Translations under genes and position numbers: made by a program | Assembly: GCF_963921235.1 (NCBI RefSeq) | Contig: NC_086097.1 | Coordinates: 147,252,001 to 147,316,000 of the forward strand | Origin: Mobula hypostoma | Lineage: Eukaryota | DNA length: 64,000 nt | Reading direction: 5' to 3' | Shown here: piece after piece, positions 2,290 to 64,000 of the stretch | How the letters are laid out: every line of letters starts with the position of its first letter | How positions within the stretch are numbered: position 1 is the first letter of the stretch | Notes under the pieces: generated by a model | What the model was told of the DNA's origin: nothing | Databases searched by the model: none | What the model saw: the letters and a program-made list of their open reading frames with translations, nothing else

Positions 2290-4105
2290 GGTCAGTGGGA
2301 GGCCTTCAAAAGTGAAATTTTAAGAGTGCAATGCTTATATGCGCCGGTCAGAATAAACGGTAAAGACAACAGGTACTGGAATCTTGTTTTTCAGGAGATA
2401 TTGAGGCCTTGGTTAAGAAAAAAAGGCAGTGCATAGCAGTGATAGGCAAGTAGGAATAAATGAGGTGCTTATGGATACAAGAGAACACTTATATCAGGAG
2501 AAATATCTAAAAGAAAGCACAAGGGCTGCCCTAGCTGACAAGGTGAAAGAGAATCAAGAACAAAGGGATTGCAAGGGACAAAATGGGTCCTCTGGAAGAT
2601 ATGAATTGTATTCTATTTCTGGAGCCAAAAGAGATGGGCAAGATCTGAAACGGAATTTTTGCATTTGTATTTACTCAGAAGATAGACACAGAGTTTATAG
2701 ATGTGAGGGAAAGCAGCAACAACTTAATGGACCCTAAACACAGTACAAAGGAGGAGGTGTTGGCTATCCTGAGGCAAATCTGGGAGGATAAATACCCAAG
2801 GTGTTCTCTCAAATCCTACGTGAGGCAAGTGCAGAAACTGCCAGGCCCTAGCAGAGATACTTAAATCATCCTTAGCAATAGGTGATATACCATAGGTCTG
2901 AAGGATAGCCAATGTTGTTCCGCTGTTCAAGAAAAGTTCTAAAAATAAACCAGGAAATCATAGGCCAATGAGCCTCACATCCCAGAGTGGTAAGGTTATT
3001 GAAAATATTCTGAGCGACTGAGAATAGTCAGCTTGGCTTTGTGTTTTTTGAGGAAGTTGCCAGGAAAGTTGATGAAGCTAAGGAAGTGGATGTTGTCTAC
3101 ATGGACATTTGACAAGGTCCTGTATGGGAGGTTGGTCAAGAAGGTTCAGCTGCTCGGCATTCAAGAGGAGGTAGTAAATTGGATTAGACATTGGCTTTGT
3201 CGGAAAAGCCAGGGAGTGATAGTAGATGGTTATCTCTCTGACTGGAGACCTGTGACTAGTGGGGTGCCACACAGATTGGTGCTGGGGTCATTGTTATTTG
3301 GCATCTATATCAATGACAAATGTGAGATGTTCCACTTTAGTAGGACCAACCAGGGTAGGAGTTGCACAGTGAATGGTAGGGCACAGAGGTGTGTGGTAGA
3401 ACAAAGGGGTTTGGGAATACAGGTCCATAATTCATTGAAAGTGGCATCACAAGTAGATACAGTTATAAAGAAAGCTTTTGCACATTGGCCTTCATAGAAT
3501 AAATATTGAGTACAGAAGATGGAATGTTATGTTGAAGTTGTGCAAGACACTGGTGAGGCCTAATTTGGAGTATTGTTTGCAGTTTTGATCACCTACCTAC
3601 AGGAAAGTCGTAAATAAGGTTGCAAGAGTACAGAAAAAATTTACAAGGATGGTGCCAGGTCTGGAAGACCTGAGTTGTAAGGAAAGATTGAATAGGTTAG
3701 GACTTTATTCCTTGGAAGATAGAAGATTGCGGGGAGATATGATAGAGATACACGAAATTGTACGGGGTATAGATAGGGTAAATGCATGCGGGTTTTTTCC
3801 ACTGAGGTTTGTTGGAATTACAACCAGAGGTCATGGGTTAAGGGTGAAAGGTAAAAAGTGTAGGGGGAACATGAAGGGAAACTTCTTTACTCAGAGAGTC
3901 ATGAGACCGTGGAATGAGCTGCCAGCACAAGTGGTGCATACAAGCTTGATTTCTACATTTAAGAGAAATTTGGACAGGTACATGGAGGCTGGGTGTATGG
4001 AGGGCTTCTGTAGGTCGATAGGAGTGGGCAGTTTAAATGGTTCACCACAGACTAGATGGACTGAATGGCCTGTTTCTCTGCTGTACTTTTCTATGATTTC
4101 TATGA
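2290..4105 (+). mobile_element. CR1 LINE, 5'-truncated, degenerate reverse transcriptase (ORF2)
   Basis: ORFs 3033-3497 (FDKV..GRLVKKV, WRPVTSGVP..VLG.LLF.IYIND) and 3649-4194 (ERLNRLGLYSLE.RRLRGD, TRGHGL). Tail (TTCTATGA)n at about 4090-4105. Confidence 0.9.
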
Positions 4106-4954
4106 CATACGAGGAGCATGTGTGGCAGACAGAAGTAAATGGACTGCACAAGGAAAAGAAAAAGATGAAAAGTCATCCAGACAGTTTGTTGTAGAACAGT
4201 TTCAGTCATTCCTGAAAGTGAATGGAATAAGATATACAGTGTTACGTCTGCACTGTACCACCCCGCTACAAACGGTTCTGGAAAGGTTTGTCCAGAGTCT
4301 GAAGGACACACTGTGAACAATGTCAGTAGAACACACTACACTGACACTGAATCAGAAGCTTGACAATTTCCTCCCTGCATATCATAATGCAGCATATTCC
4401 ACAAACAACAACTCACCAGCTTTGCTGTTCCTGGGTCATCCCTTGTGCTCACACTTGGATCTCTTCCAACCCAATCTAAGAAAGAGTATGCAGGACAAAC
4501 AGCTGAGATGAATTGAGGGTTCCTTGAACAAGCAGATTCGATGTTTCACTCCTGGTCAAGCAGTCCTAGTGAGAAACTACAGAGGTGATCAAAAGTGGGT
4601 ATTCAAAAAGGTTAAGGACAGAACTGAACCATTCCCTTAAATCGTGAAGATTGTGTCTGATAACATCTGGAGTCAACACAATGATCAGTTGAGGACAGCA
4701 GATTCAATTGTTAGAGGAGAAAGGTGTCCAGAATTATCAGACCCACTTTCTGCAGTTCCAGAGTCAACTTCTACAACCACTACAGAGGAGACCCCAAAAC
4801 CTGAGACTGGTTCACAGCCACAAATCTCTGTGTCGGGAAAATTGTTTCCTACAAGAATACGAAATGTACCACAGTGATTAAATATTTTGGCCTGAATAGG
4901 CAATTTAAAACTTACTATGCCGTGGATATCTATATAGTAGTTGTATTATATAGT

Positions 4955-5030
<76 letters not shown>

Positions 5031-5195
5031 TGTATGTGTATAAATTGAGATGAGATGCATTCTATATTGAGTTGGAGTTTATGGGTAAGCAGGGAGGAGT
5101 GCTGTGTATTTCATACAAAAATATTTTTGTAATATTTTAAATACATTTCATGACCAAGTATTCTTTGTTTACATAGTTCATTATGGGCTCTTTAA
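4104..5195 (+). mobile_element. Gypsy-type LTR retrotransposon fragment: gag remnant, integrase C-terminal region, PPT and start of 3' LTR
   Basis: Integrase-like peptides QFQSFLKVNGIR, LERFVQSLK and LDNFL.AYHNA.YSTNN.SPA.LFLG. Polypurine tract AAGCAGGGAGGAG at about 5087-5099 is followed by an LTR start (TG at 5100). The 3' region aligns with 28885-29100 and 39175-39750. Confidence 0.8.
4958..5040. repeat. (TG)n microsatellite inside the LTR element 3' region
   Basis: Directly visible dinucleotide run. Confidence 0.95.
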
Positions 5196-14509: not shown

Positions 14510-14519
14510 TGTTATATTT

Positions 14520-27170: not shown

Positions 27171-27291
27171 CAGACTATTATTTCTTTTTCTCTTTCTCAA
27201 CTTGTACTAAATTTGTTATGTTCATTTTGCTGTTTACTTTTGTGCACATGTAAGTTATATATAATTGATACCAATTTGAGTTGATGTTAAC

Positions 27292-29300
27292 TGTTGTGTA
27301 ATTAATAATTCAGTAGCATTTAAGCAATATTGTAAATGTATTGTTTGATTATGCACTCTTGTTTGTTTAAATTGTTTGAATGTGGCTGAATTGAAGAGAT
27401 TGTATGATATTGTCAGTTGAAAATGGGTTTAATGATGCACCTGGAGATCATTTAGCTTGTGGAATTTTACAAGAAAGTATTTAAAAATGGCTCCTAATGG
27501 AAGCTCTACTTGCATTTCAAAGAGCAGTTGAAACTGCTGTACCATTGGAAACTGCAGACTGAGATGCAATTAAGAATGAAAGTAAGCATGAACAAAATTC
27601 CAACATCTAAACAGAAACAGACCTGGTCAAACAAATTGTTTTACCGTTTTGGCAAGGGCTCACAAACACCAGACCAATGCAGATTTAATGGTGAAACTTT
27701 CAGAAAATGCAACAAAGTAGGGAACAAACAAAGAGTATGTTGGGCAGACAAAAGTAAATGGATGCACAGAGAAAAGGAAAAGCTAAAACATCAAGTTGCA
27801 GTTTCAAAAACAAATTTGAGTGCTGCTGATGAAAAATCTGATAATGATGAGAGTGATACAGGACTGAGTAGCCTTGAGACTTATAATGTGAAGCTAACAA
27901 TAGACAGGCAATATGGCTTGCACCAGAATTGAATGGCAATTTAATTAAATGAGGATTGAACACTGGTTTGGCTGTTTCAGTCATTCCGTAAAATAAGTTT
28001 GAACAACATTTCAAAGATACTAAACTGAAGCCTTAAGATATCCAACCCAGAGCTTAATTTGGAGAAAAGAAAACTCCTGTGAGAATGAAATTTGTAACAG
28101 TGAAATACAACAACCAACAGCCATATTGGGCTTGTATGTGGTAAAAACAGGAGGGCTAGCATTGTGGGGACATGATTGGCTGAGACAACTGCTAGTTGAT
28201 TGGAGATCATGCAGCATGCACATCTCCTGCAAGAGAGTAAAAGTGAATTAAGAATGGTACTGGATGATGTTAAAACTGACTCTGTATTGTACACCAAGAA
28301 CCATTGCCCAGCAGAGGGCAAACAGGTGTTGGTGCCAACCTCTGTGCCTCTGGTGGGAATGCATATTGGATCAAGGAAGGATCATCCTGCTCAGGGGAAT
28401 TGTGAAAATGACCAAAAGCAGTGGTCCAACTCCCCACAGCTTTTGTAGGCGGTATATCAGAAAAGGCTTCTGATATGCTAATCAGGTGGTTACTTAAGAA
28501 ATGTGGCTTAGTTTTCATCTGGAAGAGAGTCCAAGGACCTTCAGGAAAGTTGCAAGCATTTGGTTTTTGTGAGTATAGAAAACCAGAATCTACTCTGTGT
28601 GCATTTAGAGAATTGCATGAACTTCAAGTGAGAGACAAAAAGCTGCTTGTAAAAGTAGATGCAAAGACCAAAGCCCCACTGGATGAATGGAATGCCAAAA
28701 AGAAAGGAGTCAGTGGTGATACAAAAACAGGGGATTCATCAGATGATGCTGTCGATGAGGAAACCAAAAGAGATCAGATCGTCAAGGGAAAAATAAAAGG
28801 ATAAATAAGAGAACTCCAGTGAACTAAATTCACCTTCCCAAGATCAAGATGTACAAACTAGAAGGGAAAAAGAAGGAGAAGAAATGTGTCTACAACTGTC
28901 AGAACCCATTTCCTGCTGTATCAGCGTCAACTCCTACAACCATAATGGTAGAGTGCCCAAAACCTGAAATGGTTTTATATCATGTACTGTGTTTGTCGTT
29001 CAGATGTGCTCTATATTGAGTTAAAGTTAATAGCTAAACAGGGAGGAATGTTGTGCACTTAATATTTCAGTAGCACTTGAGTAATATTGTAAATATATTG
29101 TTTGATTAAGCATTCTTGTTTGTTAAAATAATTCATTACGTGTCCTATGTAAAAATACTGTAAGCGAATTGCATATGTCATCACATTACCGTGTAATGTG
29201 TGTGCATCTTGCTTAAAGTAAACATGAAGTTAGAATCACAGTTTGGACTTCCATCTTTTCTTATTAATTAGTTAATGTTTTCAAGTTACAAGACATAAAA
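27292..29300 (+). mobile_element. Non-autonomous Gypsy-type LTR retrotransposon carrying a captured RBM25 fragment (copy 1)
   Basis: Partial 5' LTR TGTTGTG from 27292. Degenerate gag with two CCHC-like knuckles (about 27635-27740) and a protease-like motif (LNTG.AVSVI, about 27955). RBM25 cargo, PPT CAGGGAGGAA, and 3' LTR 29049-29300. TSD TTAAC at 27287-27291 and 29301-29305. Confidence 0.85.
28326..28884 (+). pseudogene. RBM25: Intron-less retrocopy fragment of RNA-binding motif protein 25 (RRM region)
   Basis: Translates, with frameshifts, to VLVPTSVPLVG.HIG.RKDHP..., FVGGISEKASDMLIRWLLKKCGLVFIWKRVQGPSGKLQAFGFCEYRKPESTL..F.ELHELQV.DKKLLVKVDAKTKA.LDEW.AKKK...DEETKRDQIVKG, then SSELNSPSQ...KKEKK. 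This matches vertebrate RBM25 as I recall it. Confidence 0.92.
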
Positions 29301-29699
29301 TTAACTCATGTTTTTTCTTATTTGTAATCAGATGAGCTGTTGCTGAAGAAATCTAATTTTCATCGTATTTGTATGCTATGTACGTATGTCTTTGATAATA
29401 AAGTAAAACCTGTTCTCAAAACTGCCTTCAAAATTCTTGTGGATATGAAATCTGCTAAATTAATACAAGTTTTACTTTGCTATGCATCAGAGTTTCCATT
29501 TTGTAGGGAAGATATACACTATTCCCAGTACCCTGGCTAATCAATATAAGAAGGTAAGTAAATGAGCTACCTTCATGAATTTTGTGTCTTATGCAAGTCC
29601 ATTTCCAATGTAAATTTACATTAGAATCTACATGTTATGATAGTAACCACACAAAATTAACTCTAATGTGCATTAATATCTGATAGATCCCAATTAATT

Positions 29700-32225: not shown

Positions 32226-32810
32226 TTCCCATCACTTATGTTTTTATCAAAAAAAGGACTATGAATTGCAGCATCCTACTGCTTAATAAATGCTAATATT
32301 ATTAAACGTGGTTTCAACAATGGGGTAAAGAACTGCATTTCAAACAAAATTGATCTGATTTTTATGTTTTCATTGGAATGCGTCTCTAAATGCATTCTTC
32401 CCATACAAACAGGCATGAGCACAGCAAAGGACAGAAAACTTGCAGCTGATTTACCTTGAAATTCGGGGTTCATTACCATAAACCTTCTTCACTTTACAAT
32501 ACATGAAAGCATTACTGCCTGTCATTGGTTAAATTGTAGTGCTGATGCATTGCAGCTATAAAATACTGATCCAAGTGAAGACACCATTGTTGAAACTCTG
32601 AGATGATTAACAGCACACTGTGTTCTTTTTGTAAATTCAGTTTTATGACATCAAGTTTCATTGCCTCTTACTTCTGTGTAATCATCAGTGTTTATTTCAC
32701 CTAGATGCAAGCTTTCACATAAGAATATCACAGGTGATTTCATATTTTGAAATATAGTCACCTTTGTATTATAGGCAAGTGAAGTGGCCAGTCAGAAGAA
32801 AAATCATTTA

Positions 32811-33570
32811 AACTCGAGGAATTCTGCAGATGCTGGAAATTCAAACAACACACATCAAAGTTGCTGGTGAACATAGCAGGCCAGTCAGCATCTCTAGCAA
32901 GAGGTACAGTCGACGTTTCGAGCTGAGACCCTTCGTCAGGACTAACTGAAAGAAGAGCTAGTAAGAGATTTGAAAGTGGGAGGGGGAGGGGGCTGCTTTG
33001 TCGAGCATCTTCACTCTATCCGCTGTACCAGCCAGGATTCCACTTGCCATTCCCACACTGCCATGTCTGTCCATGGTCTCCTCTCTTGCCATAATGACAA
33101 CATGGGTTGAAGGAGCAAAATTTCACATTCCGTCCAAGTAGTCTCCAACCTGATGGCATCAACGTTGACCTCTCCAACTCCACTCTGTTTTTCCTCATCC
33201 CTGCAGCCTTCTCATCCCTTCCTTTCCCCTCCCTGGCCTCATGACCCACCCATCTGGTTCTTCATGCCCCTTCCCTTTTATTCTGTGTCTACTCTGCTAT
33301 CAGATTCCTCCTTCAACAATCTGTCTCTTCCACCTATCCCCAGTTTCTCCCTTAAACTCCCTCCCCCATCCAACTGGACTCAACACCTTCTCCCTACCCC
33401 CACCACAACCTTCTTATTCAGGCTTCTGCCCACTTCCTTTCCAATCCTGATGAAGGGTCTCGGCCCACAACATTGACCGTTCATTTCCCTACATAGATGT
33501 CACCTGACCAGCTAAGCTCCACCAGAATTTTGTGTTACTCAAGATTTCCAATATCTGCAGAATAATTTGA
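32811..33570. mobile_element. Penelope-like fragments: antisense terminus (32811-about 32992) followed by an older sense GIY-YIG C-terminus and tail
   Basis: Matches 12216-12350 and 13080-13740. Includes the motif SLQPDG.NVD.SN. Confidence 0.8.
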
Positions 33571-36792: not shown

Positions 36793-37405
36793 CAAAGTTC
36801 AAAGTATAATGTAAAACTTATTATCAGAGTACATACATATTACCACATACAACCCTGAGATTCTTTTTCTGCGGGCATATTTAGCAAATCTATAGAACAG
36901 TAACTGTAAACTGTAAACAGCAGGGACTGTTATCTGTAAACAAACTGCAATTCAGGTATAAATAAATCGCAATAAGTAACAAGCCCTTAAGTGAGTATAG
37001 CTATCCCCTCTTGTTCAAGAGCCTGATGGCTGAGGACTAATAATTGTTCTTGAACCTGGTAGAGTGAGTCCTGATACACCTGTACCTTTGGACTGATGGG
37101 ACCAGCAAGAAAAGAACATGGCCTGGGTGCTGAGGATTTTTGATGATGGATGCTGCTTTTCTACGGCAATGGTTCATGTAAATGTGCTCAATGGTTGGGA
37201 GGGGTTTACCCATGATATACACCACCGAATCCACTATCTTCTGTAGGATTTTCCACTCAGATGCATTGGTGTTCTCATACCAGGCCATAATGCAGCCAAT
37301 CAGCACATCTTCCACCACACATACATCAAAGTTTGCCGAGGTTTTCAATGAGATGCTGAACCTCCACAAATCCTGAGAAAGTAGAGGCGCTGCTGTGCTT
37401 TCATT
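36793..37405 (-). mobile_element. Rex/Babar-type LINE 3' fragment
   Basis: ORF 37037-37369: VLIGCIMAWY.N.NASE.KILQKIVD...PLPTIEHIY..CRRKAASIIKNPQHPGH.LF.L.PS..RYR...TRFKNNY. Confidence 0.9.
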
Positions 37406-38778
37406 AAGTCATCACTGAAATGACAATGCTCAGACAATCAATTCAATTCAGCCACATGCGCTGAAATGGATTCCCCTCCATTTTGATTCTGCTTATGAAA
37501 CTGAAAGTGTTCTGCAATTAACAACAATTTTGGTTCTAAATGCAGTTGAAACGCAGTCAGACATTTGAATTTGGAAATAGCGCAGTGAAGAATGGTACTC
37601 AAAAATTGAGTATAAACAAGAACACAGCATGTGCTTCTTCAGGAAGAGGAGAGGCTGCTCAAATTTAAAAAAGGCAGGAAATGGACAAATTCACAGGTTT
37701 TTTAAACAGGTGGTACTAGGTGAAAATAATTATAGGTAAAAAAGCTACACCTGGAAGATAGATGGGTTCGATTGCACAAAAGATATTTGGATTTTGTATA
37801 CTAAACAAACTGAGCAATATTTTAAAGCAAGTGAAATAGCCACTGAGAAATAAGTACCAGTTTTGCAGAGTGCTTTGGACTTAAAGGCACACTGTATGCT
37901 TCAAAGTTTGACTCCTCCAACTAAACCTGCTGAAGTTACCTTTGCTGATATCATATCAGGGACGTTCAAAACCAAAACCATTGTTGATTGTAGAACACTT
38001 CCAGTTTCGTAAATGGAATCAAGAGGAAGGGGAGTCTATTTCAGTGCATATGACTGAATTGGACTCCAATATATCTGAGCAGTGATGGATTTAGAGAAGC
38101 ACTACGAAATTGTTCAGTTTTGTGGAATCTTACAAGAAAACATTCAGAAATGGCTCCTAACTGAAGCACAACTTACCTTTAAAAGAGCAGTTGAAATTGC
38201 TTTATCAATGGAAACAGCAGACAGAGATTGAATTGCACTCAGGAATGAAAGTGAGCGTGAGCAAATTTGCAATCTCTAAACAGAAGCAGGCAAACAAATT
38301 GCGATACCATTGTGGCAGGGGCTCACTTGTACCAGATAATGCAGACTTTAAGTCAAAACTTGAAAAAGATGCAACAAAGTAGGACACATATGAAGAGCAT
38401 GTCAGGTAGACAAAAAAAAACAGACTGCTCAGGAAAGAGAAAAAGATAAAAAGTCAAGTTGCAGTTTCAAAAAGAGCACTTTTCAAAATGAGTTTGAATA
38501 ACATTTCAAAGTCACTAAAGTGAAGCCTGCAGATATCCAAGTAAGAAATTATATTGGAGAAAAGATAACTCCTCTGGGAATGAAATTCATAACAGTGAAA
38601 TACAACACTGAATGAGTCACGTTTGGCTTGTATGTGGTAAAAAGAGAAAGACCAGGAGATCCATCCACGGTTTGCATGTCGCATCCTCTGTAATAGAATT
38701 AATTGAAATGAATTAAGAAAGGTACTGGATGATGCCACACTGTACACCATGAACTATTGGACAAGAGAGTGCAAACAG

Positions 38779-39174
38779 GTGTTGTTGCCAACTTCTCTGC
38801 CTGTGGTTGGAAAGCTTATTGATGAAGGAAGGACTATGCTGCTCAAAGAAATCTGAAAAGTGATGAAAGCAGTGGTCCGACTGCAACAGTTTCTATAAGC
38901 AAAATGTCTGATATGTTAATGAAGCAGCTACTTGTGACATGTGGCTTGGTTTTAAGCTGGAAGAGAATTCAAGGAGCTTCAGGAAAGTTGTGAACATTTT
39001 GCTATTGTGAGTGTAAAGAACCAGAATCTACTCTGTGTATATTAAGGTTTTTGCATGAATTTCAAGTGAAAGACAAAAACTGTCTGTAAAAGTAGATGCA
39101 AAGACCAAAGTCGAGCTGGATGAATAGAAGGCCAAAAAGAAAGGCGTCGATAGAGAAATGAAAATCGAGGATTC
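38779..39174 (+). pseudogene. RBM25: Second, more decayed intron-less RBM25 fragment
   Basis: VLLPTSLPVVGK..., SGPTATV, SDMLMKQLLVTCGLVLSWKRIQGASGKL*..CYCECKEPESTL.ILRFLHEFQVKDK..VKVDAKTKVELDE*KAKKKG, with stops and frameshifts. Confidence 0.88.
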
Positions 39175-39402
39175 AACCCTTACAACCACCATGGAGGAGG
39201 CCCCAGAACCTGAGATCTTTTAACACAACAACAAGTCTCACCTGCCAAGCATAATGAACTCCCTTGTCAGGAAAGACATTATCCCAAGGAGTAAGAAATC
39301 CTCCACAGCAATTAAATCTTCAGGCCTGAATGGGATAATTTAAAATTTATTATGCTGTAGTTGTCTAGATAGTAGTTGTATATTATAGTATTTTGTATAT
39401 AC

Positions 39403-39624
39403 AGAAGAAGAAGAAGAAAAAAGCCCTTAACTCCGAGTGGAGTCATCGGGATGCCGTCATGACAGCGTTTTTTTTAGCAGGCTTTCTTATTTTTAAGAAG
39501 CCGAGTTGCTAGCTCAATGCTCAACCCAGCACGGATGGAAAGCGTGCAAGGGAGCCAGCTAGATTTGAACTCGGGAGTCTTCGCTTTGAAGTCCGGCACT
39601 GATGCCACTACACCACCAGCTGGC
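39403..39624 (-). mobile_element. tRNA-derived SINE nested in the LTR element
   Basis: Minus strand has TGGTGTAGTGG (A box), GAGTTCAAATC (B box) and a (TTC)n tail. TSD-like TATTKTGTATATA at 39389-39401 and 39625-39637. Confidence 0.8.
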
Positions 39625-41799
39625 TATTGTGTATATAGTATAGTTTATGAGTTGAGATGCATTCTATATTGAGTTGGAGTTTATAGCTAAGCAGGGAGGA
39701 GTGCTGTGTATTTAATATTTGAGTGATATTGTAAATAGATTGTTTGATTAAGCCATTGTTTGAGTAAGTATTCTTTGTTGTGGACATAATGCATTGCGAG
39801 TTACATGTAAAAGTACGTAAATGGCATAGGTCATTATTCTGCCATGTCATGCGTGCGTGTTTTGTTTAAAATATAAATGAAATACGACATGCATCTCTCA
39901 GTTTCCTTGTCTTTCTTTTGATTAGTTTAATGTTTTGGAGCTACAACACACAGCATCTGCCTGCACTAAATGCTGGCAAGAGAGAGGATAAAGCCTTTAA
40001 TCATTGTACAAGGCATGGATGTCAGTGGTAATTCAAAGGACAACACATCCTAACAGGTCACAACAGAAGAGGATACCCATTTTTTGGAAAAGCTAGCATG
40101 AGAAGCTCTGGATGGACACACAGTGAGCTCAAGCATGTGGAAAATATTTGTGCTATGTGAAGCCTACAGAATCTGGACAGTTGTTTTGGATGTTTTGTTT
40201 TTCATTAAAATCAAGTTAGCATCACAAGGATTGTATCATGTGGACAGTCGATCTTTCTGTAAATGAAGTAACAACGTTCAGGTAGAATATACCCTCAGAC
40301 TTTGTCTACCTCTGTGCATGTGTATGTGGGAGGAAGATGTGGAGACCATGGCTGGAAACAGGCGGTGGGGAGATGGTACTATGCACAATTCAAGTTTTTT
40401 TTGTCATGAATGATGTATTTTTATGTTAGTTTAAATATGCAGCTCCCCTCTGGTATCTTAGCGACTCAGTGAGGGAAAGATCCTGACAGCTAAGATTAAG
40501 GAAAATGCCGTGCAACTAGTCATGAAAAGCCTCGACTAAAGATGTTAGAAGGTTTTCTCAGAAAAGCCACTGAATAAATTATTATTATATGTTTAAAATT
40601 TAAAGACCTTTTGAGAAATCTAAATTAAGTTTCTCCAACTAGCATGGCAGCATTTGAAAAGCCTTTTTTGAGTTTTAAGTCAGGTGAAGTCGTTATATAC
40701 TACATGCAGCATACAGATCTCATAGTTACCAACATAGTGCAATATGAGTAATTAATTTATGCTTGGTAGGATAACTGACAAATGAATGCTGATATGATCA
40801 CCAAAGAAATCTGCCCATTGTTCAAGAAATGGCAGAGAACTTTCATCCTGGGAGCCAGTGGAGTGTTTGTAATGTCACAGGCAATGGCAGCACTGTAGTA
40901 CCTCTACAGTATTGAATAATGTTTATCTAGGAATAGAGCACAAGGGGGAACCTTGATAAAGGAATTTAAGGTTTTAAAGTGTTTATTTTGCCCTATAGAC
41001 AAAGAGAAGATGCTTAGTCCAGCAATAAAAGTCAGAAACAAGATCCACAAGTATCAGACAGTCACTATTAAATCTCTTTATGGTATTCAGGAAAAATGTC
41101 TTTAATCAAGAAAATGCCTAGAATGTGAGAAACCGTTCTTTCATTGCTTTCTAAAGCCAATGCAACTGCTAATAATTGTCTATCCACTGGTCAAGCACTG
41201 CATGACTCTCAGTGTTTATCCTCATCCATTCATTCTTCATTCCACTTGCTCGACACATTTATTGAGGTCAATGAAAAATGAATTGCATTTTGGACATACA
41301 ATTCCCATAACTATTACTGTTTGTAGAAAAGTGTTAGTTTAAAACTTATTCTTATTTGTTCGCTATGTACCCACAACTTTTAGCTCTGGTCTTTCAGTCG
41401 AAACAGAAACTGTTATTTCAGTAATCTTCTTTCTGCTTAGTAAGGTGGACACTTATAATTATTGCCATTAGTAATAGGCTAACAGAAGATGAATGGTTTT
41501 GATGATTGGTTATATAATCATAGTGGGTACACTTTTTAAAGATTTTGAAAGTAAAAATTCTTCAGACAAGTTTTAAAGGCAGGAGACCCAGAGTACTGGG
41601 CTGCTTTGAAGCTGTTCTATGACTCAACTGCTAGAATTATTTTTGCTTCTCATTCTGGAGTCTGAATTAACCAATTTACAGTTCAAAGTGTTAAAGTAGC
41701 AGAAGACAGAAGGAAGGCTGGGTTGATTTTCTTCTTATTTTGAAACATAAACTCACTACAACTGCCGTTACAATTTTTTTCTCACAAAATATCAACTAA

Positions 41800-47440: not shown

Positions 47441-50400
47441 TCTTGACAATTTTTCAGACATGATTAATCAGAAATCTTGCAGAAGATCAAACCTTGGGAA
47501 AAAGAAAACATAATACAGAGGATTTTGAATTTCGTGAGTGTTGCACTTCATTTCAAAATTTGGGTCTAAATTTTAATTAAAGTCAACTATGAATGTAAGA
47601 AGGAGTGGGTTATGAAATAATATAATAGATAAGCAATGCTAAATATTTTTTAAGAAGTTAAAAATTCTCATCAAATATATATTCTCTCCTGAGGAAGTAA
47701 AACTCTAGAAATGGGAGAACTATCACTCCAGCAACATTAAGAATGACGTTGGATTAAAGAATTAGGCTCTCAAGAGGATAACCAAGTCTAATAATTGCAG
47801 TCTATGAAAATGAGCAAAGGATAACTAAAAGACTGGAAGAAAATTAGGGAGGAAACTGAAATACATTAAGAGTGAAAGACCAGTAAAAATAAACCTGGGT
47901 GTTGTAGGGGCAGTATCAAAAGAGATGATCATGAGGAAAGTACTGGAGGTGTTAGGCAAGTATATTGAATGTCCTGTCACAGACAAAAAAAAATACTGGA
48001 AGTTATAGGGAGCCAGTGGTTCAGTGAAAGTAAGGAATGCAAAGCAATTGTTAAAGTTAAGCTACTGGAGAAATTAGGGGAACTAAATAAAAGTTCTCAG
48101 ATCAAAATGTGAATGGAGATCACCGATGATTCTCTCAAAACTGTTCCATCATTCAATATAATCATAGTTGATCTAATAATTCATGTACGTACTTACCTTC
48201 TTCCTATTTCCATTAATGACTTAAAAAACCAGTCTTGGTCCTAAATTAATAATTGATCAAGTATCAAGATGATCCAGACAAATCATCCACAAACTTCTCT
48301 CTTGTAAGACCTAACTTTAATTTTTAGTCCATGCCATTTCTAAGCCAATGTTTCCATCTTCCACATGTAGCAATAGTTTCTTTCTTTTTATTTTATCAGT
48401 TCCCTTCATAAATTGAAATTTCTGTCAAATTACTCCTTAAGCAGAATTTCAGGGATTACCAACTTGTTTTGTGTAGTCTTTGCTCATGATTTAACCCATG
48501 AAATTCTGTCACACACTTCTCTGATCCTGAACTTGGGTGCTTTCTGAATAGAACCTGCCTGTTTCCCTTGTGGCTTTGTGGTTTTCTGTTGTGTTCTTTG
48601 ATTTCCTCCCACGTCACAAAGAATCAGAATCAGACTCAGGTATTATATCACCGGCATATGTTGTTCACTTTGTGGCAGCAGTGCAATGCAATATAATAGA
48701 GGAAAAAACCTGTGAATTACAGTAAGTATATATGCAGGTAAGTTTTTTGACTCCTTAACTTTACCTTTAGTGACAAAAGTGACAAATAGAATCAAACAGC
48801 CGTGTCGGAAGGACGAAGTTGCAGGGGGCATACAGAGACCAATGGGATCACCCTCCTGAAAGTCACCATTGATAAAATGGGCTGAATATTCTCGTTTTGT
48901 GACACGATAGGTAAATAAACCCAGAAATCAAAAGTAAAATAACTAATCATTTTGCAAAAGGAAATATGCCAGACCACGCTTCACATTTGTTCTTACTGAA
49001 TAGTATATTGTTTCCAATTATAGTAGGTTACTAGAGCTATTATTTTGAAGTGTCACTTTTGCCAGCCGAGTTAAGAGTATGATACATTGAAGCCCAGAGA
49101 AATGTGGTGTGTTGTTCGTGAACTGCTGGCAGTGAATCACGATATGCATCTGTTAGTTCAATGACTAGGAAGATTTCAACATATAGATAAACCATTGTCC
49201 AACAGAAAATTTCTGAAAAAGAAAATCCTAAAACAGTACACAGTTGAATAGACTGAGTTTCTATCTCAACTTGTTGAGCAAGAAAGGTCATGAATCTATC
49301 CTGTTCAGCATAATTACTTGTGGCTATAAAAAATTTCTCATCTCATGATCTAGATTCACATGTTCAAAAGAAGGAAGGTGACACAATCAGAGCCAAGAGA
49401 AACAGCCCATTGAACCTGAACCCTTTACTGAAACCAAAGCAGTATGAGATCTATTTTAGAACTGGAAATAATGTTAAATGTTTTTCAACGACCGGTTGGA
49501 AGTCCACCATTTGCATCAGTGGGAATATAATAAAAGGTGAAAGATATTAAGATGCAGGCAATGAAAAATTGATCCACATACAACAATGCTCACACCAAAA
49601 TCAATTAATATGTCATCTAGGCATTCAAATAAATACAAAATCCTGTGGATATCTGGAAGTCCTGGAAATAGCTTAAGCAAACTCACCAGTGAGAAAAAAC
49701 AAGTTTTATTATGTTAATTCAATGAGATTTATAACTGAAAAATATTAAAAGAAGAACGAGAAAGCAGAGAGGCATGAAAGGCAGAAAATGAGGTGAGAAC
49801 GGGTGTACATTACAGCATTACATAACAAAAGAGATGTTAGTACAAGGCAAAAAAGATAATTGAAAATCACAAAAGCTGGATTCCCTTGGGACATTGAATA
49901 ACTTCCATTTTAGTTATTAAAATTGAAATAGATCTCAGTGTCTTCTTTTCAATTCTGGCTGTAAGATCCAAAATTCATTTCTCTGAACCCTTACCATGCC
50001 AACCTTAAGGATTAAGGATTAAGGATCTATGAGATTTGCAATGGATCTTTTGAACATATTTATGAATTTAATACATTTGATGCAAATAGATTCAGACTTA
50101 TATACTATATCCAAGAAAGAAGCTGTTTCTGAAGCAATCAATGTGGGTCTTCAAGCTCCTGTTTCTCCACCCCAATGATAGTAACAAGAAGAAGGCATGT
50201 CCCAGATGGTGAGGTCCTCAGTGATCAATGCCACCTTCTTGAAGCACTGCCTCTTTTTTTTTTTAATTTTATTTTTATTTGGATAAGGAATTCACAAATA
50301 TCATGTACTTTTTTCACACATATAACCTTTTCCATTTTTTTATATGTATAAAACTACAATTATTTATACATTCTTAAGTACACATTGAGATGATATAAAA

Positions 50401-51959
50401 GGAAAATAAACACTTAAATAGATAATTATGTACTGTGGTAAATCTAACCTATTAGGCTAAGTAATGGTATTAGTTGATAAGAAAAATGGTAATAATAGTT
50501 TCCATATAACCCTTCTGGACCATTTCCACTGGTCCAAAATGTTGTATATAAGCCTATGTAACAACCATTGTAGGTGTTTATATCCCAATTTGTTCATGCT
50601 TGCTCCTGCCTGCAGACATAATTATCCAATCCCCATGTACTTATTTACTTAATTTTTTCATTTTTTTTATCCCTTTCCCAAATCTTTCCCTTTACTTGTG
50701 TTAATTCTCTATTTTCCAAAAGAAAACAAAAAAAAAAGACATTTAGACTAGGGGTGCTTACGTTAGCAATATTACTGTGTGGATGAGAAGAGCAGTATAA
50801 ATCATTAGGAGAGTCATCTAAAGTCTGCTCGCATTGGGGTTATATATTCAATCCATTTATTCCAGATTTGATAAAATTTTTCTTTTTGAATTCTCAGGGA
50901 GTAAGTCAACTTTTCCATTTTAAATATTTCCAAGATAATTTTGTGCCAATCTTCTAATGCAGGTGGTATTGGATTTAGCCATTTTCTAGTGATTGATTTC
51001 TTACTTGCCACGAAGAGGGCCTGCAGCAACTTTATATCTTCCTTCTGTTCAAGAAACAATACATGCCCCAAATAGAGCGTCTCAAAGTTCAGAGGTATCT
51101 GGGACCTAAGTACCTTAACTAATGTTCTATGAATACCTTCCCAATATAGACTTAATTTAGGGCAATCCCAGAAAATATGAAAATAATTTGCCTCCTTGGA
51201 GCCACACCTTCTCCAACACATCACATTTGTATCTTTATATTTTTCCTGATATGGGGTCTTGAAGTATCTTATAATGTTTTTCCAACAATGTTCTCTCCAA
51301 GTCAAAGAATTAGTCGAGGACCATTGAAAGCTGCAGATTTTCCCCCAAGCCTCCTCTGAAAGTACCAACCCCGCTTCTTTCTCCCACTTCTCTTTAATAT
51401 ACAGTGTATTTACATTTTTAGCATGGGAGAGTGCATTATATAATCGAGAAACTGATTTACTAGGTATTGAACTGCAAGCCGAATTCAGAATCTTGAAAAA
51501 TTCTAATTCTACTGTTGATAGGTCTGTATATCTACAACTCTGGTTAACATAGTTTCGTACTTGAAGGTACCTAAAAAAGTCATTATGTTCTAGGCCATGT
51601 TTGTCCTGCAGGATTTGGAAACTTTGTAATACTCTTTTATCTATAAATGAGAGGTAGGTTGTAAGACCTTTCTTTATCCATAGCTCAAATCTTTTATCTC
51701 CTCTGTTGGGAAGGAATTCAGTATCATATGCACACCATCTAAAGAGTTTTAACATGTTATTAATTCCACATAAATTAACCACCTTCTGCCATACTTTTAA
51801 TGTAAGATTTATCCAACTGTTTTTTATTTTTTCCAATTGGGCCATCAATCCTTTGTCAGCTATTGAGGCCTGTAGAGGAAAACTGTCAACTAATCCAAAT
51901 TCTATTTCCTTCCAACTAGCCTTATATTCCCTATTACACCAATATAACAGAGGGATTAT

Positions 51960-52947
51960 TCTCCGTAACTTCCGCCACCTCCAACGGGACACATCTTTCT
52001 AAGCACATCTTTCCCTCCCCCCCCTCTGCATTCCGCAGGGATCGCTCCCTACACAACTCCCTTGTCCATTTGTCCCCCCCATCCCTCCCCACTGATCTCC
52101 CTCCTGGCACTTATCCGTGTAAGCGGAACAAGTGCTACACATGCCCTTACACTTCCTCCTTTACCACCATTCAGGGCCCCAAACAGTCCTTCCAGGTGAG
52201 GCATCACTTCACCTGTGAGTCGACTGGGGTGATATACTGCGTCCGGTGCTCCCGATGTGGCCTTTTATATATTGGTGAGACCCGACGCAGACTGGGAGAC
52301 TGCTTTGCTGAACATCTACCCTCTGTCCACCAGAGAAAGCAGGATCTCCCAGTGGCCACACATTTTAATTCCACATCCCATTCCCATTCTGACATGTCTA
52401 TCCACGGCCTCCTCTACTGTAAAGATGAAGCCACACTCAGGTTGGAGGAACAACACCTTATATTCCGTCTGGGTAGCCTCCAACCTGATGGCATGAACAT
52501 TGACTTCTCTAACTTCCGCTAGGCCCCACCTCCCCCTCGTACCCCATCTGTTACTCATTTTTATATACACATTCTTTCTCTCACTCTCCTTTTTCTCCCT
52601 CTGTCCCCCTGAATATACCTCTTGCCCATCCTCTGGGTCACCCCCCCCCCGTCTTTCTTCCCGGACCTCCTGTCCCATGATCCTCTCGTATCCCCTTTTG
52701 CCTATCACCTGTCCAGCTCTCGGCTCTATCCCTCCCCCTCCTGTCTTCTCCTATCATTTTGCATCTCCCCCTCCTCCTCCAGCTTTCAAATCCCTTACTC
52801 ACTCTTCCTTCAGTTAGTCCTGACGAAGGGTCTTGGCCTGAAACGTCGACTGCACCTCTTCCTATAGATGCTGCTTGGCCTGCTGCGTTCACCAGCAACT
52901 TTGATGTATGTTGCTTGAATTTCCAGCATCTGCAGAATTCCGGTTGT
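51960..52947 (+). mobile_element. 5'-truncated Penelope-like element (GIY-YIG endonuclease + terminal repeat) inserted in L1 ORF2
   Basis: ORF 52070-52522: PC..NKCYTC...FTCESTGVIYCVRCSRCGLLYIGET.RRL..F.EH...RLEEQHLIFRLGSLQPDGMN. 15-bp TSD TAACAGAGGGATTAT at 51945-51959 and 52948-52962. Confidence 0.95.
52816..52851 (+). ncRNA. Minimal type I hammerhead ribozyme motif in the Penelope terminus
   Basis: AGTC-CTGACGA-A-GGGTC-TT-GGCCT-GAAA-C-GTC-GACT: stem I AGTC/GACT, CUGANGA and GAAA cores, stem II hairpin, and palindromic ACGT in place of stem III. Confidence 0.65.
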
Positions 52948-55900
52948 TAACAGAGGGATTATCTGTGAGGCATAAAAATAATTTCTCAGGCAAGGAAGAA
53001 CCATACCTCCTCCTTCCTTCCCTAACTGTAAGGTGTTATATCGAATTCTAGGTTTCTTTCCTTGCCAAATGAAGCGGGAAATCCATTTGTCCCATTCCCT
53101 GAATTGATTATCATCCACCTCCACCCGTAAAGTACGGAAAAGATACAATAACCGAGGAAGAATATTCATTTTTATAGTATTTATCCTTGAATTTAAACTT
53201 AAAAAGGGGATAAGATTCCATCTATGCATATCTGCTTTTATCTCTGAGATTAATGGCCAATAATTTACCTGTGACAGTGTTGAAAGATCCTTCGGCAGGG
53301 TTATTCCTAAATATTTTAATGATATAGCTTCCCACTTAAGATCGTATGTATCCTGCAATTTTTTGGATGGTGTATAATTTAGGGACATAACCTGCGTTTT
53401 CTTTACATTTATTTTATAACCTGATATTTTCCCAAAGTCATCCAACAGAGTAAACAATCCTATAAATGATTTTTCTGGTACACTCAGACCAAAACATCAT
53501 CTGCGAATAACGCCACTTTCTGTTCAATCCCTGCCACCTTGATACCTTTTACGATTTTGCTCTGTCTTATTAGTTGGGCAAGCGGTTCAATATATAGCGC
53601 AAAAAGGAGAGGAGAAATTGGGCATCCCTGTCTAGTGCCTCTCTCTAAGATGAAGGAGTCAGAGAGGTCCCCATTTATCTTAATTCGGGCTGTAGGGCTG
53701 TCATATAGAGTCTGAATTACTTTAATAAACTTTTCTTGAAAGCCGAATCTTCCTAACACTCTGTATAGGAATGCCCAACTAACCGAATCAAAAGCTTTCT
53801 CAGCATCCAATCCAACTACCATTGTCTCTGTCTTGTTCTTATTAACCTGTTCTAATATGTGCAGAGTTCTCCTTATGTTGTCCTGTGTTTGTCTTTGTTG
53901 AATAAATCCAGTCTGGTCTAAATGGATTAGGCCAGGTAAAAGCTTTTCCAATCTGCGCGCTAATATAGATGTAAATAGTTTGTAATCTAAATTAAGAACG
54001 CTAATCGGCCGATAATTGCCACATTCTAGTTTATCTTTACCCTCTTTAGGAATAACTGAAATAATCGCTTCTCTCCAGGAAGGTGGAGTCTCTCCTCTCT
54101 GCAAGATCCAATTAAAGGTGTTAAGTAGTAATGGGGCTAACTGTGTCTTCAGGGACTTGTACCACTCTGAGGTAAACCCATCAGAACCCGGGGACTTTCC
54201 AGCCTTTAACCTAGAGATGGCCACGTTCAGTTCTTTGACAGTTACTGGTTCTAATAAACTTTCATTTTGTAAATCTGTAAGTTTAGGTAGATCTAAAAAA
54301 TTCAATACACTGTCTATATAGGGTTCATTGGGGGCCTGGGGTTGGGAGTACAGCTCTCGATAATATGTTTCAAAACTCTCTTGAATTTTCCCTATTGTAC
54401 TCTCCACAAGCTTTGTCTTTGGAATCTTTATTTTATGAATTGTATTGTCTGTTTGCTGTTTTCGTAATTTATATGCTAATAATCTAGCTGATTTACCTCC
54501 TACTTCATAATTCTTTTGTCTCAGATAAAGAAAATTTCTTTGAGTTTCCAACGTATAAATATCGTCAATTTCACTTTGCAATTTCCTAATTTCCTGTTTT
54601 CGATTTGAATTACTTTTGTTGCTATCTACAACTTGAAGTTGTTTTAATTTTCCTTGAAGGTCTGCTAATTTTTGTGCATTGATTTTTTTCATGTGAGTGG
54701 TAATGGAAATAATTTTCCCTCTCAGTACAGCTTTCAATATATCCCATAAGATCACTGGTGATGTTTCTCCCGTGTCATTAAGGTCTAGATATTCTTTGAT
54801 TTCTCCCCTTAATCTCTCCATTACTTTCTGGTTATTGAGTATATGTGAGTTTAGCCTCCATAGTTTTTACCTCATTTTCCTTTCCAGGATTAGAGACATA
54901 GAGACTGGGCTATGATCCGACAGATCAATTGTTGCAATATTACAGTTTTTTATCCTAAGTCTAAATGTATTAAAGATAAAGAAATAGTCTATCCTTGAAT
55001 AGGCTGAATGAGGGAAAGAGTAATATGTATAATCTTTACTAGTAGGGTGTAATTCCCTCCAGACATCTATAATTCCCAACTCCTCCATCAATGAATTCAC
55101 TTTCCAAGTCAGAGGTTTATTCTGAGTAACTATTCTTGAAGAATCTAATATAGGATTTAATCTAATATTAAATTCCCCTCCACAAATTACTACCCCTTGA
55201 GAACTGACCATTAGGTCAAAAATGTGTCTATAAAATGACCATTCACTACCTGGAGGAGCATAAACATTCAGCAATGTTATTTCTGTACCTTCTATTCTTC
55301 CTGTGATTTTTACGAACTGTCCTTCTTTGTCTTTAGTCTCTGAAATATGTTCATAATTAAGAGTACTTGATATTAAAGTAGCTACCCCTCTTTTGTGACT
55401 CAATTTATATGATGAATAAAATACATGCTTAAAGCCCATTCTTTTTAATTTTCCATGTTCAGATTGGCTCATATGTGTTTCCTGGAGGAAAGCTATTTGT
55501 GCCCTCTCTTTTTTCAATTTAGACATAATCTTATTTCTTTTAATTGGATTCAAAACCCCATTAACATTATAGGAAATTATTTTTACAAATTCAGTTTGCA
55601 TTTTTCTCTAGTAGAAAAAAAACACTCTCCTTTTCTAACCAAACAGTAAGCAATCCCCTCTCAACAGTAAACCAAGACATATAACCACACCCTAGACATT
55701 TTTGAACGTGTAACATTTGAAAATTTTTCCCGACTTCTAACAGTGAGGCCTGAGCACCGACCCGCCTCAGTTCAGAGGGATAACCTCTATCTTCACCCTG
55801 TGCTAGAGGGCCCTCAGCAGTTTGAATAATCATAGAGAATTTTCTCCTAATTATGGTCTCGACCAAATTGCTATCATTCAAGTTATTCCTCCTAGTTTAT

Positions 55901-55964
55901 TTTCAGTTACCAGTTTTCATTTTACCTTTAAGTCCGATTTACTCTTTACAGTCATTTCTCTTAA

Positions 55965-56951
55965 TTAATCTGTGTTCTCTGTACATTCACGTCTGAATAT
56001 TTGCAGCTTTTCCTTGTAGTTTGACACTCTGGTTCGTGTGGAGCGTCCTCGCCCCACTGACTGCCACGACTTCTGCTGAATCCTCTCCAGTAGCGACTCC
56101 GGTTGGGTGATAACTTTAATAGGTAGTCCCCGGTCCGCCAGGTCCGATGTTGCCTCCTCTACCGTAGCGTAAGTTTTTGTCCCTTCGTCGTAAAAGACTC
56201 TCAGCCGAGCTGGATACAGGGTCTGGAATCTGATGTTGTTTTCCTTCAGGACTCTCCGTGTTTCCGTATATTCCTTCTGTCTGGCAAGAATCCCCAGTGC
56301 GTAGTCGTGGTCTAAACTGATTTTACAGTTGTTCCACATGAAACCTTTCTTTTTCCATGCCCTTTTAAGCACCTCTTCCTTCGTTCTGTAACTGAGAAAT
56401 CTGACCAGAATCGATCTGGGCTGGGCGCCTGCCAGAGGCTATGGTGCCAACGCGCGGTGACCCCTTTCTATCTGTAGGTCTTTTGCGGCCGGTATATCAA
56501 GGTTCTCTCTAAGTAGCTTCTCCACGAAGGGAATCATCAATCCAGGTTTACCTTCAGTTCCTTCGGGAACTCCGTAGATCCTCACATTTTCCCTTCTCGA
56601 GCGGCCTTCTTGATCTATTAGTTTCCACTGGAGCTGGTCTTGTAGCTTCAGCATTTCTGCTATCACCTTCTCTGCGTTTTGTAGCTTCTCTTCAATTCCA
56701 ACAATCCTCGCTTCGGCTTCATCTATCCGCGAGTTAGTTTTTACTATTTCTCCTTTAATATCTTCCAGCTGTTTGCTGTTATCTTGTCGGAACTCGCGAA
56801 TCTCTCCGAGAATCAAAGACAGAGTCACCGATTCCCCCTCATTATCTCCGTCCTGGCTTGCCGTGGGGGAGCTAGGCCTGTCGCCTTGCTGCGTCTCCTT
56901 ATGTTTATCAGCCTTCGGAGTGGACTTTTTAATCTTGTTCTTAGACATCAT
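55965..56951 (-). pseudogene. L1 ORF1 (coiled coil + RRM/CTD, transposase-22-like), one in-frame nonsense codon
   Basis: Motifs EARIVGIEE, EGRSRRENVRIYGVPEG.E, IERGHR and LYPARLRV. The two ORFs are in the same frame, separated by TAG at 56439-56441. Confidence 0.9.
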
Positions 56952-57087
56952 CCTTGCCCCTTTTATTAATATAGTTATGCAATATTATGTATTTGTCTAA
57001 ATTCGATTTTGGGGCAGTTTACCTTCTTTTTTGTCGAGAGACCTTTTCCTTACGCCGCCATTCCCTTGATGACCCGGAAGTCGCACC

Positions 57088-60760: not shown

Positions 60761-60824
60761 ATACACAAATTCTCCTCAGTGTCATAGACTGACACTGGAG
60801 CCGAAACATTGAAGATGGCAAGAG

Positions 60825-63802: not shown

Positions 63803-64000
63803 CCAGTCCTGACGAAGAGTCTCTGCCTGAAACGTCGTCTGTACCTCTTCCTAGAGATGCTGCCTGGCCTGCTGCATTCACCAGCAACTTTGATGTGTGT
63901 TGCTTATACCTCTCCCCACCCTGTTACTTGTAAAAATGCCATCCTTTTCTCTCAATTCCTCCATCCCCACCCCATCTGCTCTCGGGATGAGGCTTTGCAT
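63803..64000 (+). mobile_element. Penelope terminus plus RT-region fragment
   Basis: AGTCCTGACGAAGAGTCTCTGCCTGAAACGTC...CAGCAACTTTGATGTGTGTTGCTT, followed by sequence matching 12810-12900. Confidence 0.8.

What the first reader, a model, noticed from the sequence alone, without database searches (positions are those of the whole stretch)
37738..39955. Second, independently diverged copy of the RBM25-carrying element shows the chimera was amplified
About 10 kb downstream the same order recurs: gag, GAATTAAGAA.GGTACTGGATGATG, TGTACACCA.GAA..ATTG...GCAAACAG, RBM25 VL.PT..., tail, PPT, LTR. The 5' junction is the same, but flanks, deletions and many substitutions differ. Copy 2 keeps residues closer to canonical RBM25 where copy 1 differs (QLL, LVLSWKR, QGASGK, KEPE), so neither copy derives simply from the other. 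Two copies in 64 kb suggest a high genome-wide copy number (inference).
Basis: partly seen in the sequence, partly recalled or inferred. Interest (0 to 1): 0.8.

Follow-up and report, generated by a model that had tools for sequence, protein, structure and literature searches.

The report
Retrotransposon family amplifying captured RBM25 piece
Two decayed jumping-gene copies here carry an intron-free piece of the host splicing-factor gene RBM25 where their own copying enzymes should be, and sequencing depth suggests roughly a thousand such pieces per genome, so the hybrid likely multiplied with help from intact relatives: a known kind of gene capture at an unusually large scale.

Summary
Largely confirmed. 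Copy 2 (about 37560-39955) and copy 1 (27292-29300) are decayed Ty3/gypsy-type LTR elements whose RT-RNaseH-integrase core is replaced by intron-free RBM25 RRM sequence. They are 78-83% identical, and homology stops at the element ends. Copy 1 has LTR ends at both termini and a 5-bp target duplication, so these are separate integrations. Each copy keeps RBM25 residues the other lost (18 versus 9 of 78 sites); pairwise dN/dS is 1.17, fitting neutral decay. Contig depth over the best-covered RBM25 bins is about 740-1,940 times single-copy in three related organisms, a rough order of 10^3 copies; that these are all LTR-borne was not shown. Copy 2 is orthologous in a second organism. Corrections: the 5' junctions differ by 12 nt, and copy 2's 3' junction lies about 190 nt earlier, likely a private deletion. 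New details: the 39-nt junction spacer is likely an RBM25 alternative exon, and copy 1's 3' switch has 9-nt microsimilarity. The mechanism is known (Tan et al. 2016); the scale, versus 1-11 copies in the examples read, is unusual. The scan noted this family 11 times before in the same genome.

The parts
37401..37551 (-). Inverted gag fragment of the same family abutting copy 2's 5' end, where the 5' LTR is missing
   Evidence: tblastn to P0150 residues 75-134, E 3e-6; 78.7% to copy 2's own gag 37965-38126
37560..37739 (+). Repeated sequence upstream of gag, likely the element's 5' leader (start approximate)
37740..38473 (+). Copy 2 gag with zinc-knuckle region, broken by stops and frameshifts
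   Evidence: tblastn P0150 residues 6-237, E 3e-10; P0227 E 4e-8
38485..38657 (+). Copy 2 protease remnant; the first part of the protease (present in copy 1) is deleted
   Evidence: P0182 E 8e-10, P0150 residues 314-369; alignment to copy 1; loose ends of 325 contigs at 38480 in X1 show that other copies continue
38709..38739 (+). Last element sequence before the 5' switch (protease-RT linker)
   Evidence: 25 of 26 identical to copy 1; position in the polyprotein judged by eye from P0150/P0227; the last 5 nt are assigned to the element by inference only
38740..38778 (+). 39-nt spacer, likely an RBM25 alternative exon or acceptor extension
   Evidence: Same length, place and first three residues as the 13-residue insert of one RBM25 isoform, P0023, 1 of 120 proteins; host gene sequence not available
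38779..39175 (+). Copy 2 RBM25 coding piece (pre-RRM linker and RRM), with two stops (38991, 39125), frameshifts near 38820 and 39080 and a 12-nt deletion near 38900
39173..39396 (+). Integrase C-terminal tail and 3' untranslated part of the element
   Evidence: 78.3% to the RBM25-free family member at 4761-4961
39400..39628 (-). Very high-copy short insertion, likely a tRNA-derived SINE, absent from other family copies
   Evidence: Depth about 192,000-224,000 in X1; joints skipping about 39381-39650 in all four runs; no Rfam or ARAGORN hit; SINE label from recalled A/B-box pattern
39688..39701 (+). Polypurine tract
   Evidence: Sequence directly before the LTR, shared by all three family members
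39702..39955 (+). Copy 2 3' LTR, 254 bp, TG...CA with perfect 8-bp terminal inverted repeat
   Evidence: depth falls to single-copy beyond 39955
27292..29300 (+). Copy 1: 5' LTR stub 27292-27372, gag from about 27377, protease 27890-28218, spacer 28287-28325, RBM25 28326-28884, tail, 3' LTR 29049-29300
   Evidence: identical 5-mer at 27287-27291 and 29301-29305 (target duplication); LTR-LTR 71 of 81 identical
28876..28884 (+). Copy 1 3' switch point: 9 nt that read both as RBM25 (end of KKKEKK) and as element tail
   Evidence: 8 of 9 identical to 4714-4722 of the RBM25-free member; translation matches RBM25
4105..5183 (+). Third family member: gag piece, integrase 3' half, PPT and partial LTR, no RBM25; serves as the unchimeric reference for the 3' junction
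   Evidence: P0150 residues 1075-1236, E 1e-25

Best explanation
These are two decayed, separately integrated copies of a Ty3/gypsy-type LTR element in which about 600 nt of intron-free RBM25 sequence stands in place of the RT-RNaseH-integrase core; the hybrid likely arose once by reverse-transcriptase template switching onto a co-packaged RBM25 mRNA and likely multiplied to the order of a thousand copies using the enzymes of intact relatives. Shown: replacement of roughly residues 405-1245 of a 1324-residue relative polyprotein by RBM25; separate integration; reciprocal divergence; high depth in three organisms; copy 2 shared with a second organism. Inferred: (1) switch out of the element in the protease-RT linker onto RBM25 mRNA at an exon boundary; (2) switch back through 9-nt microsimilarity into the integrase tail, keeping PPT and LTR; (3) trans-mobilisation as a non-autonomous element, since all cis signals survive; (4) neutral decay after insertion, in copy 2 with loss of the 5' LTR, deletions, a SINE-like insertion and a further deletion of about 190 nt across the 3' junction at a 3-nt match. 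RBM25 most likely rode along as cargo without a function.
For: RBM25 identity. Domain order gag-zinc knuckle-protease-RT-RNaseH-integrase in relatives and the parts that copies 1-3 cover. No intron-sized gap over about 185 residues, including the KLQ/AFG site where isoforms P0048 and P0113 differ by a 5-residue insert that likely marks a splice junction. No A-run of 8 or more at either 3' junction. 3' microsimilarity 8 of 9. Flanks unrelated; target duplication and LTR ends on copy 1. 78 conserved RBM25 sites: 45 kept by both, 18 only by copy 1, 9 only by copy 2, 5 differ in both, 1 shared change. dN 0.231, dS 0.197 over 93 codons, Fisher p 0.71. Depth over bins 38944-39195 relative to the single-copy flank: 853-1942 (X1), 743-1592 (X5), 849-1934 (X9); 118 distinct X1 contigs at site 38938. 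Organism B contigs match copy 2 with 4 differences in 331 nt, 4 in 251 nt across the 5' junction and 5 in 228 nt. Contigs of all four runs resume the tail at 39173-39174 with other sequence upstream, so copy 2's 3' junction is not the general form (table 8). Same mechanism and secondary retroposition described in PMC5131818 (sections read).
Against: The depth ratio is not a copy number: the tool says so; short overlapping contigs inflate it, and the 80% cut-off deflates it (only 60-67 times at 38776-38859 and 381-446 times at 38860-38943). Apart from the organism B orthologue, no listed contig spans RBM25 plus element, so that the other RBM25 pieces are LTR-borne rests on the two local copies and on unchecked scan notes. 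The 5' junctions differ by 12 nt, and 5' microsimilarity could not be tested without the host gene. Copy 2 has no 5' LTR and no testable target duplication. The 5-kb 3' flanks gave one gappy local alignment above 30 shuffles (score 110.8 versus maximum 52.6); it lies 2.2-2.5 kb from the element ends inside a dispersed repeat. dS rests on only 59 synonymous sites.
Confidence: 0.85

Rival explanations
1. RBM25 mRNA was captured more than once by the family, and copies 1 and 2 come from independent template switches.
For: 5' junctions differ by 12 nt and 3' junctions by about 190 nt; copy 1's two LTRs share an 11-nt segment that copy 2's LTR lacks; PMC5131818 reports recurrent switch sites in one Gypsy family.
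Against: Both copies leave the element at the same motif and enter RBM25 at the same 39-nt stretch; RBM25 and element parts diverge equally (K2P 0.20-0.27); one shared change at a conserved residue; copy 2's 3' junction is explained by one deletion at a 3-nt match and is not the general form.
Confidence: 0.06
2. The capture step was splicing (an element inside an RBM25 intron read through and spliced to host exons) and not template switching; amplification as in the best explanation.
For: The 5' junction lies at the start of a likely exon, and the 3' junction lies at the KKEKK stretch where tetrapod and fish proteins differ by an insert, likely an exon end.
Against: The 3' junction shows 9-nt microsimilarity; return to the element's own tail is not explained by splicing alone; template switches near exon junctions are reported.
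Confidence: 0.05
3. The high RBM25 depth comes from ordinary LINE-made processed pseudogenes, and the LTR chimera itself has few copies.
For: No listed non-orthologous contig bridges RBM25 and element; retrocopies are common in cartilaginous fishes (14,081; bioRxiv 10.64898/2026.06.26.734816, passages).
Against: Both RBM25 pieces in this window are LTR-embedded, 3'-truncated and without poly(A); no other RBM25 part (such as PWI) was found in the window; 44 X1 contigs cover the junction spacer at 38765; 11 scan notes describe LTR-embedded RBM25 elsewhere in this genome (unchecked).
Confidence: 0.03
4. Copy 2 arose from copy 1's locus by local segmental or tandem duplication.
For: The copies are 10 kb apart in the same orientation; one weak gappy alignment lies 2.2-2.5 kb downstream of each.
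Against: No homology next to either end; copy 1 has its own target duplication; copy 2's 3' flank differs from it; the downstream alignment is in a dispersed repeat.
Confidence: 0.01

Closest known systems
LTR-mediated retrocopies of animals acting as non-autonomous LTR elements (Tan et al. 2016, PMC5131818; abstract and sections 5, 6, 9 read), e.g. Drosophila CG17604_r and CG10212_r
   Same: Partial spliced mRNA replaces part of the internal ORFs, microsimilarity at a switch point, no poly(A), LTRs kept, further rounds of retroposition
   Different: Those cases are young with few insertion sites (18 sites for nine retrocopies; 5 of 7 zebrafish cases LTR-made); here the copies are about 20% diverged, shared between species, and on the order of 10^3 by depth
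Maize Bs1 (as described in PMC5131818 discussion; original papers not read)
   Same: Host exons inside an LTR element, all copies with the same switch points, secondary retroposition
   Different: One to five copies, three parent genes, reported functional hybrid protein; here one parent gene and decayed frames in both copies examined
Pxyfem of Plutella xylostella (PMC9674220; passages)
   Same: Multicopy partial cDNA of a host gene joined to LTR-element gag through template switching
   Different: 11 W-linked copies that make silencing RNAs against the parent gene; no such function was tested or shown here, and copies here are far more diverged from the parent
Ty3/gypsy elements with gag-protease-RT-RNaseH-integrase polyprotein (unnamed relatives P0150, P0227)
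   Same: Gag, zinc knuckle, protease and integrase tail homology; LTR and PPT
   Different: RT, RNaseH and the integrase core are absent, replaced by RBM25

Membership tests
LTR-mediated retrocopy (Tan et al. 2016) | Partial, intron-free host mRNA copy flanked on both sides by one LTR element | tested here: met
   exon positions inferred from isoform inserts, host gene not seen
LTR-mediated retrocopy (Tan et al. 2016) | Retrocopy replaces part of the internal ORFs and does not merely interrupt them | tested here: met
   About 840 residues of the relative polyprotein are missing between the junctions
LTR-mediated retrocopy (Tan et al. 2016) | Microsimilarity at the 3' switch point | tested here: met
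   Copy 1, 8 of 9 nt shared with the RBM25-free member while still reading as RBM25
LTR-mediated retrocopy (Tan et al. 2016) | Microsimilarity at the 5' switch point | not testable with these tools
   Neither the host RBM25 mRNA nor an intact element nucleotide sequence was available (no genome; no hit)
LTR-mediated retrocopy (Tan et al. 2016) | No LINE hallmark (poly(A) tail) at the end of the retrocopy | tested here: met
   No run of 8 or more A at either 3' junction
LTR-mediated retrocopy (Tan et al. 2016) | Both LTRs present in the integrated product | tested here: inconclusive
   Copy 1 has a 5' stub and a full 3' LTR; copy 2 has only the 3' LTR, its 5' end being rearranged
LTR-mediated retrocopy (Tan et al. 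2016) | Secondary retroposition to several sites | tested here: met
   Two copies with unrelated flanks, target duplication on copy 1; high depth
LTR-mediated retrocopy (Tan et al. 2016) | Co-transcription from the LTR | not testable with these tools
   Only contigs of a run guessed to be RNA were available
Ty3/gypsy LTR retrotransposon | Domain order protease-RT-RNaseH-integrase | tested here: met
   In the relatives P0150, P0227, P0152; in the window protease precedes and the integrase tail follows the gap
Ty3/gypsy LTR retrotransposon | TG...CA LTR, PPT, 4-6 bp target duplication | tested here: met
   (copy 2 LTR ends intact; copy 1 target duplication; copy 1's last base pair is altered)
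Ty3/gypsy LTR retrotransposon | Primer binding site and RT-based placement in a named clade | not tested
   PBS region deleted in both copies; RT absent; no tree built
Functional retrogene | Open frame under purifying selection | tested here: not met
   Stops and frameshifts in both copies; pairwise dN/dS 1.17

The most novel reading that the evidence does not exclude
The captured RRM was not passive cargo: in both copies the element's protease-linker frame runs without a stop through the 39-nt spacer into the RBM25 frame (their junction difference is 12 nt, frame-neutral), so the active hybrid may have made a Gag-protease-RRM polyprotein whose splicing-factor domain helped its RNA be processed or packaged, explaining how a pol-less element reached about a fifth to a third of its family's depth; or the thousand copies feed small RNAs that regulate host RBM25.
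Probability: 0.1. Interest if true: 0.85.

Novelty: new variant of a known kind. Interest (0 to 1): 0.5.

Why it matters
LTR-borne host-gene capture with secondary amplification is known in animals, but in the papers read the copy numbers are 1-11. A vertebrate family in which one captured piece of a conserved splicing factor reached the order of a thousand copies, shared across related species, offers a natural experiment: do cargo exons evolve neutrally or under selection while the element is active, and do such copies silence or titrate the parent gene? It also warns that retrocopy counts and RBM25 read mapping in this lineage may be inflated by one transposon family. No paper describing an RBM25-carrying LTR family turned up in the listings of searches; subscription journals, repeat libraries and preprint supplements were not searched.

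Tried and rejected
No whole genome was held, so loci could not be counted directly. Protein search with the integrase tail of the third member found nothing at E 1e-10; the profile-free search of representatives then gave 1565 hits. The junction-spanning peptide found no candidate. No chondrichthyan RBM25 and no Gag-RBM25 fusion protein was among the 120 listed of 356 hits; weak evidence. Pfam found only RRM_1 above cut-off, in 1 of 14 window peptides. Rfam and ARAGORN found nothing at the SINE-like insertion. No RNA holder listed; run X22 is only guessed to be RNA, and its contigs over RBM25 (one with 32 differences in 202 nt, continuing beyond 39174) may be the host mRNA or other copies, so no claim on expression is made. 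No target duplication could be assigned to copy 2: its 3' flank 5-mer occurs at four upstream places, none at the boundary. Absolute dating was not attempted: LTR-LTR distance rests on 81 nt, and the one rate read (7e-10 per generation, epaulette shark, PMC10587355 passages) is for another species. Look-ups of earlier findings by sequence and by relatives were blank. No structure or complex prediction was run, as it would not bear on the question.
Full report
Observation. A self-comparison of the window shows three blocks shared by 27423-29295 and 38085-39950. Six-frame translation and tblastn place RBM25 at 28326-28871 and 38779-39178. The copy 1 peptide returns RBM25 proteins at 61-72% identity among the 120 listed of 356 hits and Pfam RRM_1. 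Relatives found with the integrase tail of a third family member have the order gag, zinc knuckle, protease, RT, RNaseH, integrase. Mapped back, copy 2 covers residues 6-237 and 314-369 of the 1324-residue P0150, copy 1 covers 123-384, and neither has RT, RNaseH or the integrase core. After RBM25 both copies resume in the integrase tail, 78% identical to the RBM25-free member at 4714-4961, then PPT and LTR. The host is a vertebrate; that it is a cartilaginous fish rests on recalled repeat types and an unchecked scan note (e1-7942110).

Separate integrations. Copy 1 runs from 27292 to 29300 with the same 5-mer on both sides, and its LTRs are identical at 71 of 81 alignable bases. Copy 2's LTR is 39702-39955 with a perfect 8-bp terminal inverted repeat; its 5' LTR is gone and an inverted gag fragment (37401-37551) stands there. 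The 1-kb flanks score like shuffles and the 5-kb flanks give no blastn hit at E 0.01. One gappy alignment above shuffles lies 2.2-2.5 kb downstream of each copy inside a dispersed repeat and is not continuous with the ends. The copies differ by K2P 0.20-0.27 in gag, protease, RBM25 and LTR alike. Of 78 RBM25 sites conserved in at least 90% of 120 proteins and covered by both copies, both keep 45, only copy 1 keeps 18, only copy 2 keeps 9, both differ at 5, and 1 change is shared. Pairwise dN/dS over 93 codons is 1.17 (p 0.71), fitting neutral decay but with few synonymous sites.

Junctions. At the 5' side both copies leave the element at the same motif, then have 17 nt (copy 1) or 5 nt (copy 2), then a shared 39-nt stretch, then RBM25's VLVPT. 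One of 120 RBM25 proteins, P0023, has a 13-residue insert at exactly this place, with the same first three residues, so the stretch is likely RBM25's own alternative exon or acceptor extension and the switch lies at an exon boundary; this is inference from one protein. The frame of the linker runs without a stop into the RBM25 frame in both copies; that this is the pol frame was judged by eye against P0150 and P0227. At the 3' side copy 1's 28876-28884 reads as the end of RBM25's KKKEKK and also matches the RBM25-free member at 8 of 9 bases: microsimilarity as expected from template switching. Copy 2 joins RBM25 to the tail about 190 nt earlier at a 3-nt match. In one search tail contigs of all four runs begin at 39173-39174 with other sequence upstream and the listed RBM25 contigs end at 39174 or before, so this junction is likely a private deletion.

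Copy number. With no assembly held, contigs of four of 24 listed runs were laid on 37600-40100 at 80% likeness. Single-copy depth is 16.8-17.8 in X1 (three contigs without a difference), 11.0 in X5 and 7.5 in X9 at the 3' flank. Relative to that, bins 38944-39195 give 853-1942, 743-1592 and 849-1934; the more diverged bins 38776-38943 give 60-446; gag peaks at 5695-7068 and the PPT bin at 6147-7559. At single RBM25 sites more than 100 distinct contigs carry another base than copy 2 (118 at 38938 in X1). The tool warns that summed contig depth is no copy number; overlap of short contigs inflates it and the likeness cut-off deflates it, so several hundred to about two thousand is the honest range. 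The near-equal ratios in three organisms indicate that the burst preceded their split (inference). Organism B holds copy 2 itself (4 differences in 331 nt, 4 in 251 nt across the 5' junction, 5 in 228 nt), and organism C has an LTR piece with 14 differences in 232 nt, probably the orthologue. No listed non-orthologous contig bridges element and RBM25, so the LTR context of the other copies is not shown here. Eleven scan notes describe LTR-embedded RBM25 at other places of this genome (10 seen; unchecked); they agree but are leads only.

Mechanism. Most likely a co-packaged RBM25 mRNA was copied between two template switches, replacing about 2.5 kb of pol with about 0.6 kb of cDNA while LTRs, leader and PPT stayed intact, so intact relatives could mobilise the hybrid in trans. 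The copies then decayed; copy 2 lost its 5' LTR, part of the protease and the original 3' junction, and gained a SINE-like insertion that other copies lack (joints and loose ends). Replacement, separate integration, decay and high depth are shown; single origin, template switching and trans-mobilisation are inferred.

Comparison. Tan et al. 2016 (PMC5131818; abstract and sections 5, 6, 9 read) describe this structure, microsimilarity, and secondary retroposition in flies, with cases in zebrafish, chicken and mammals, and cite maize Bs1 at one to five copies. Pxyfem (PMC9674220; passages) has 11 copies and silences its parent. A review (PMC5470649; passages) treats LTR-mediated retrocopies as established. 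A survey of 244 vertebrate genomes (bioRxiv 10.64898/2026.06.26.734816; passages) does not name RBM25 in its main text; its supplements were not seen and may bear on novelty. Search listings for RBM25 with retrotransposon (20 of 29 listed) and with shark (4 of 4) showed nothing on this family.

Verdict. The feature is real and the reading is supported. It works like, and by the features testable here belongs to, LTR-mediated retrocopies that act as non-autonomous elements. The variant aspect is scale and age in a vertebrate. A functional role of the RRM during amplification or in silencing RBM25 is not excluded (about 10%) but has no positive support beyond the in-frame junction. Interest 0.5.

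Noticed in passing
window 28287-28325 and 38740-38778: The 39-nt stretch before RBM25's VLVPT matches in length, place and first three residues the insert of a cyprinid RBM25 isoform (P0023). It may be a little-known alternative exon or acceptor extension of RBM25 conserved across jawed vertebrates and preserved in the element.
   Followed up: partly
window 37401-37551 (-): Inverted gag fragment of the same family, 79% like copy 2's own gag, sits where copy 2's 5' LTR should be.
   Followed up: partly
window 4105-5183 (+): Third member of the same LTR family with another internal deletion (gag joined to the integrase 3' half), no RBM25; its LTR region is closer to copy 2 (87.6%) than to copy 1 (76.7%).
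   Followed up: partly
window 50255-56984 (-): Nearly complete L1/Tx1-type LINE with long open frames (394, 228, 460, 246, 157, 181 residues); its end is 95% like 14159-14511, so the family looks young. Family label recalled.
   Followed up: no
window 12212-13746, 32810-33179, 52133-52948, 60823-61165, 63805-64000: Several 85-94% identical copies of a repeat in both orientations, including a 335-nt inverted pair 775 nt apart; looks like a Penelope-type element (recalled label).
   Followed up: no
window 39400-39628 (-): SINE-like insertion with the highest depth of the laid stretch in all four runs, including the run guessed to be RNA.
   Followed up: partly
bioRxiv 10.64898/2026.06.26.734816: The top retrocopy parents in cartilaginous fishes are unusual genes (MIPOL1, SUDS3, SDF2L1, SLU7, ZNF276); element-borne amplification as seen here could explain them. 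RBM25 is not in the main text; supplements were not seen.
   Followed up: no
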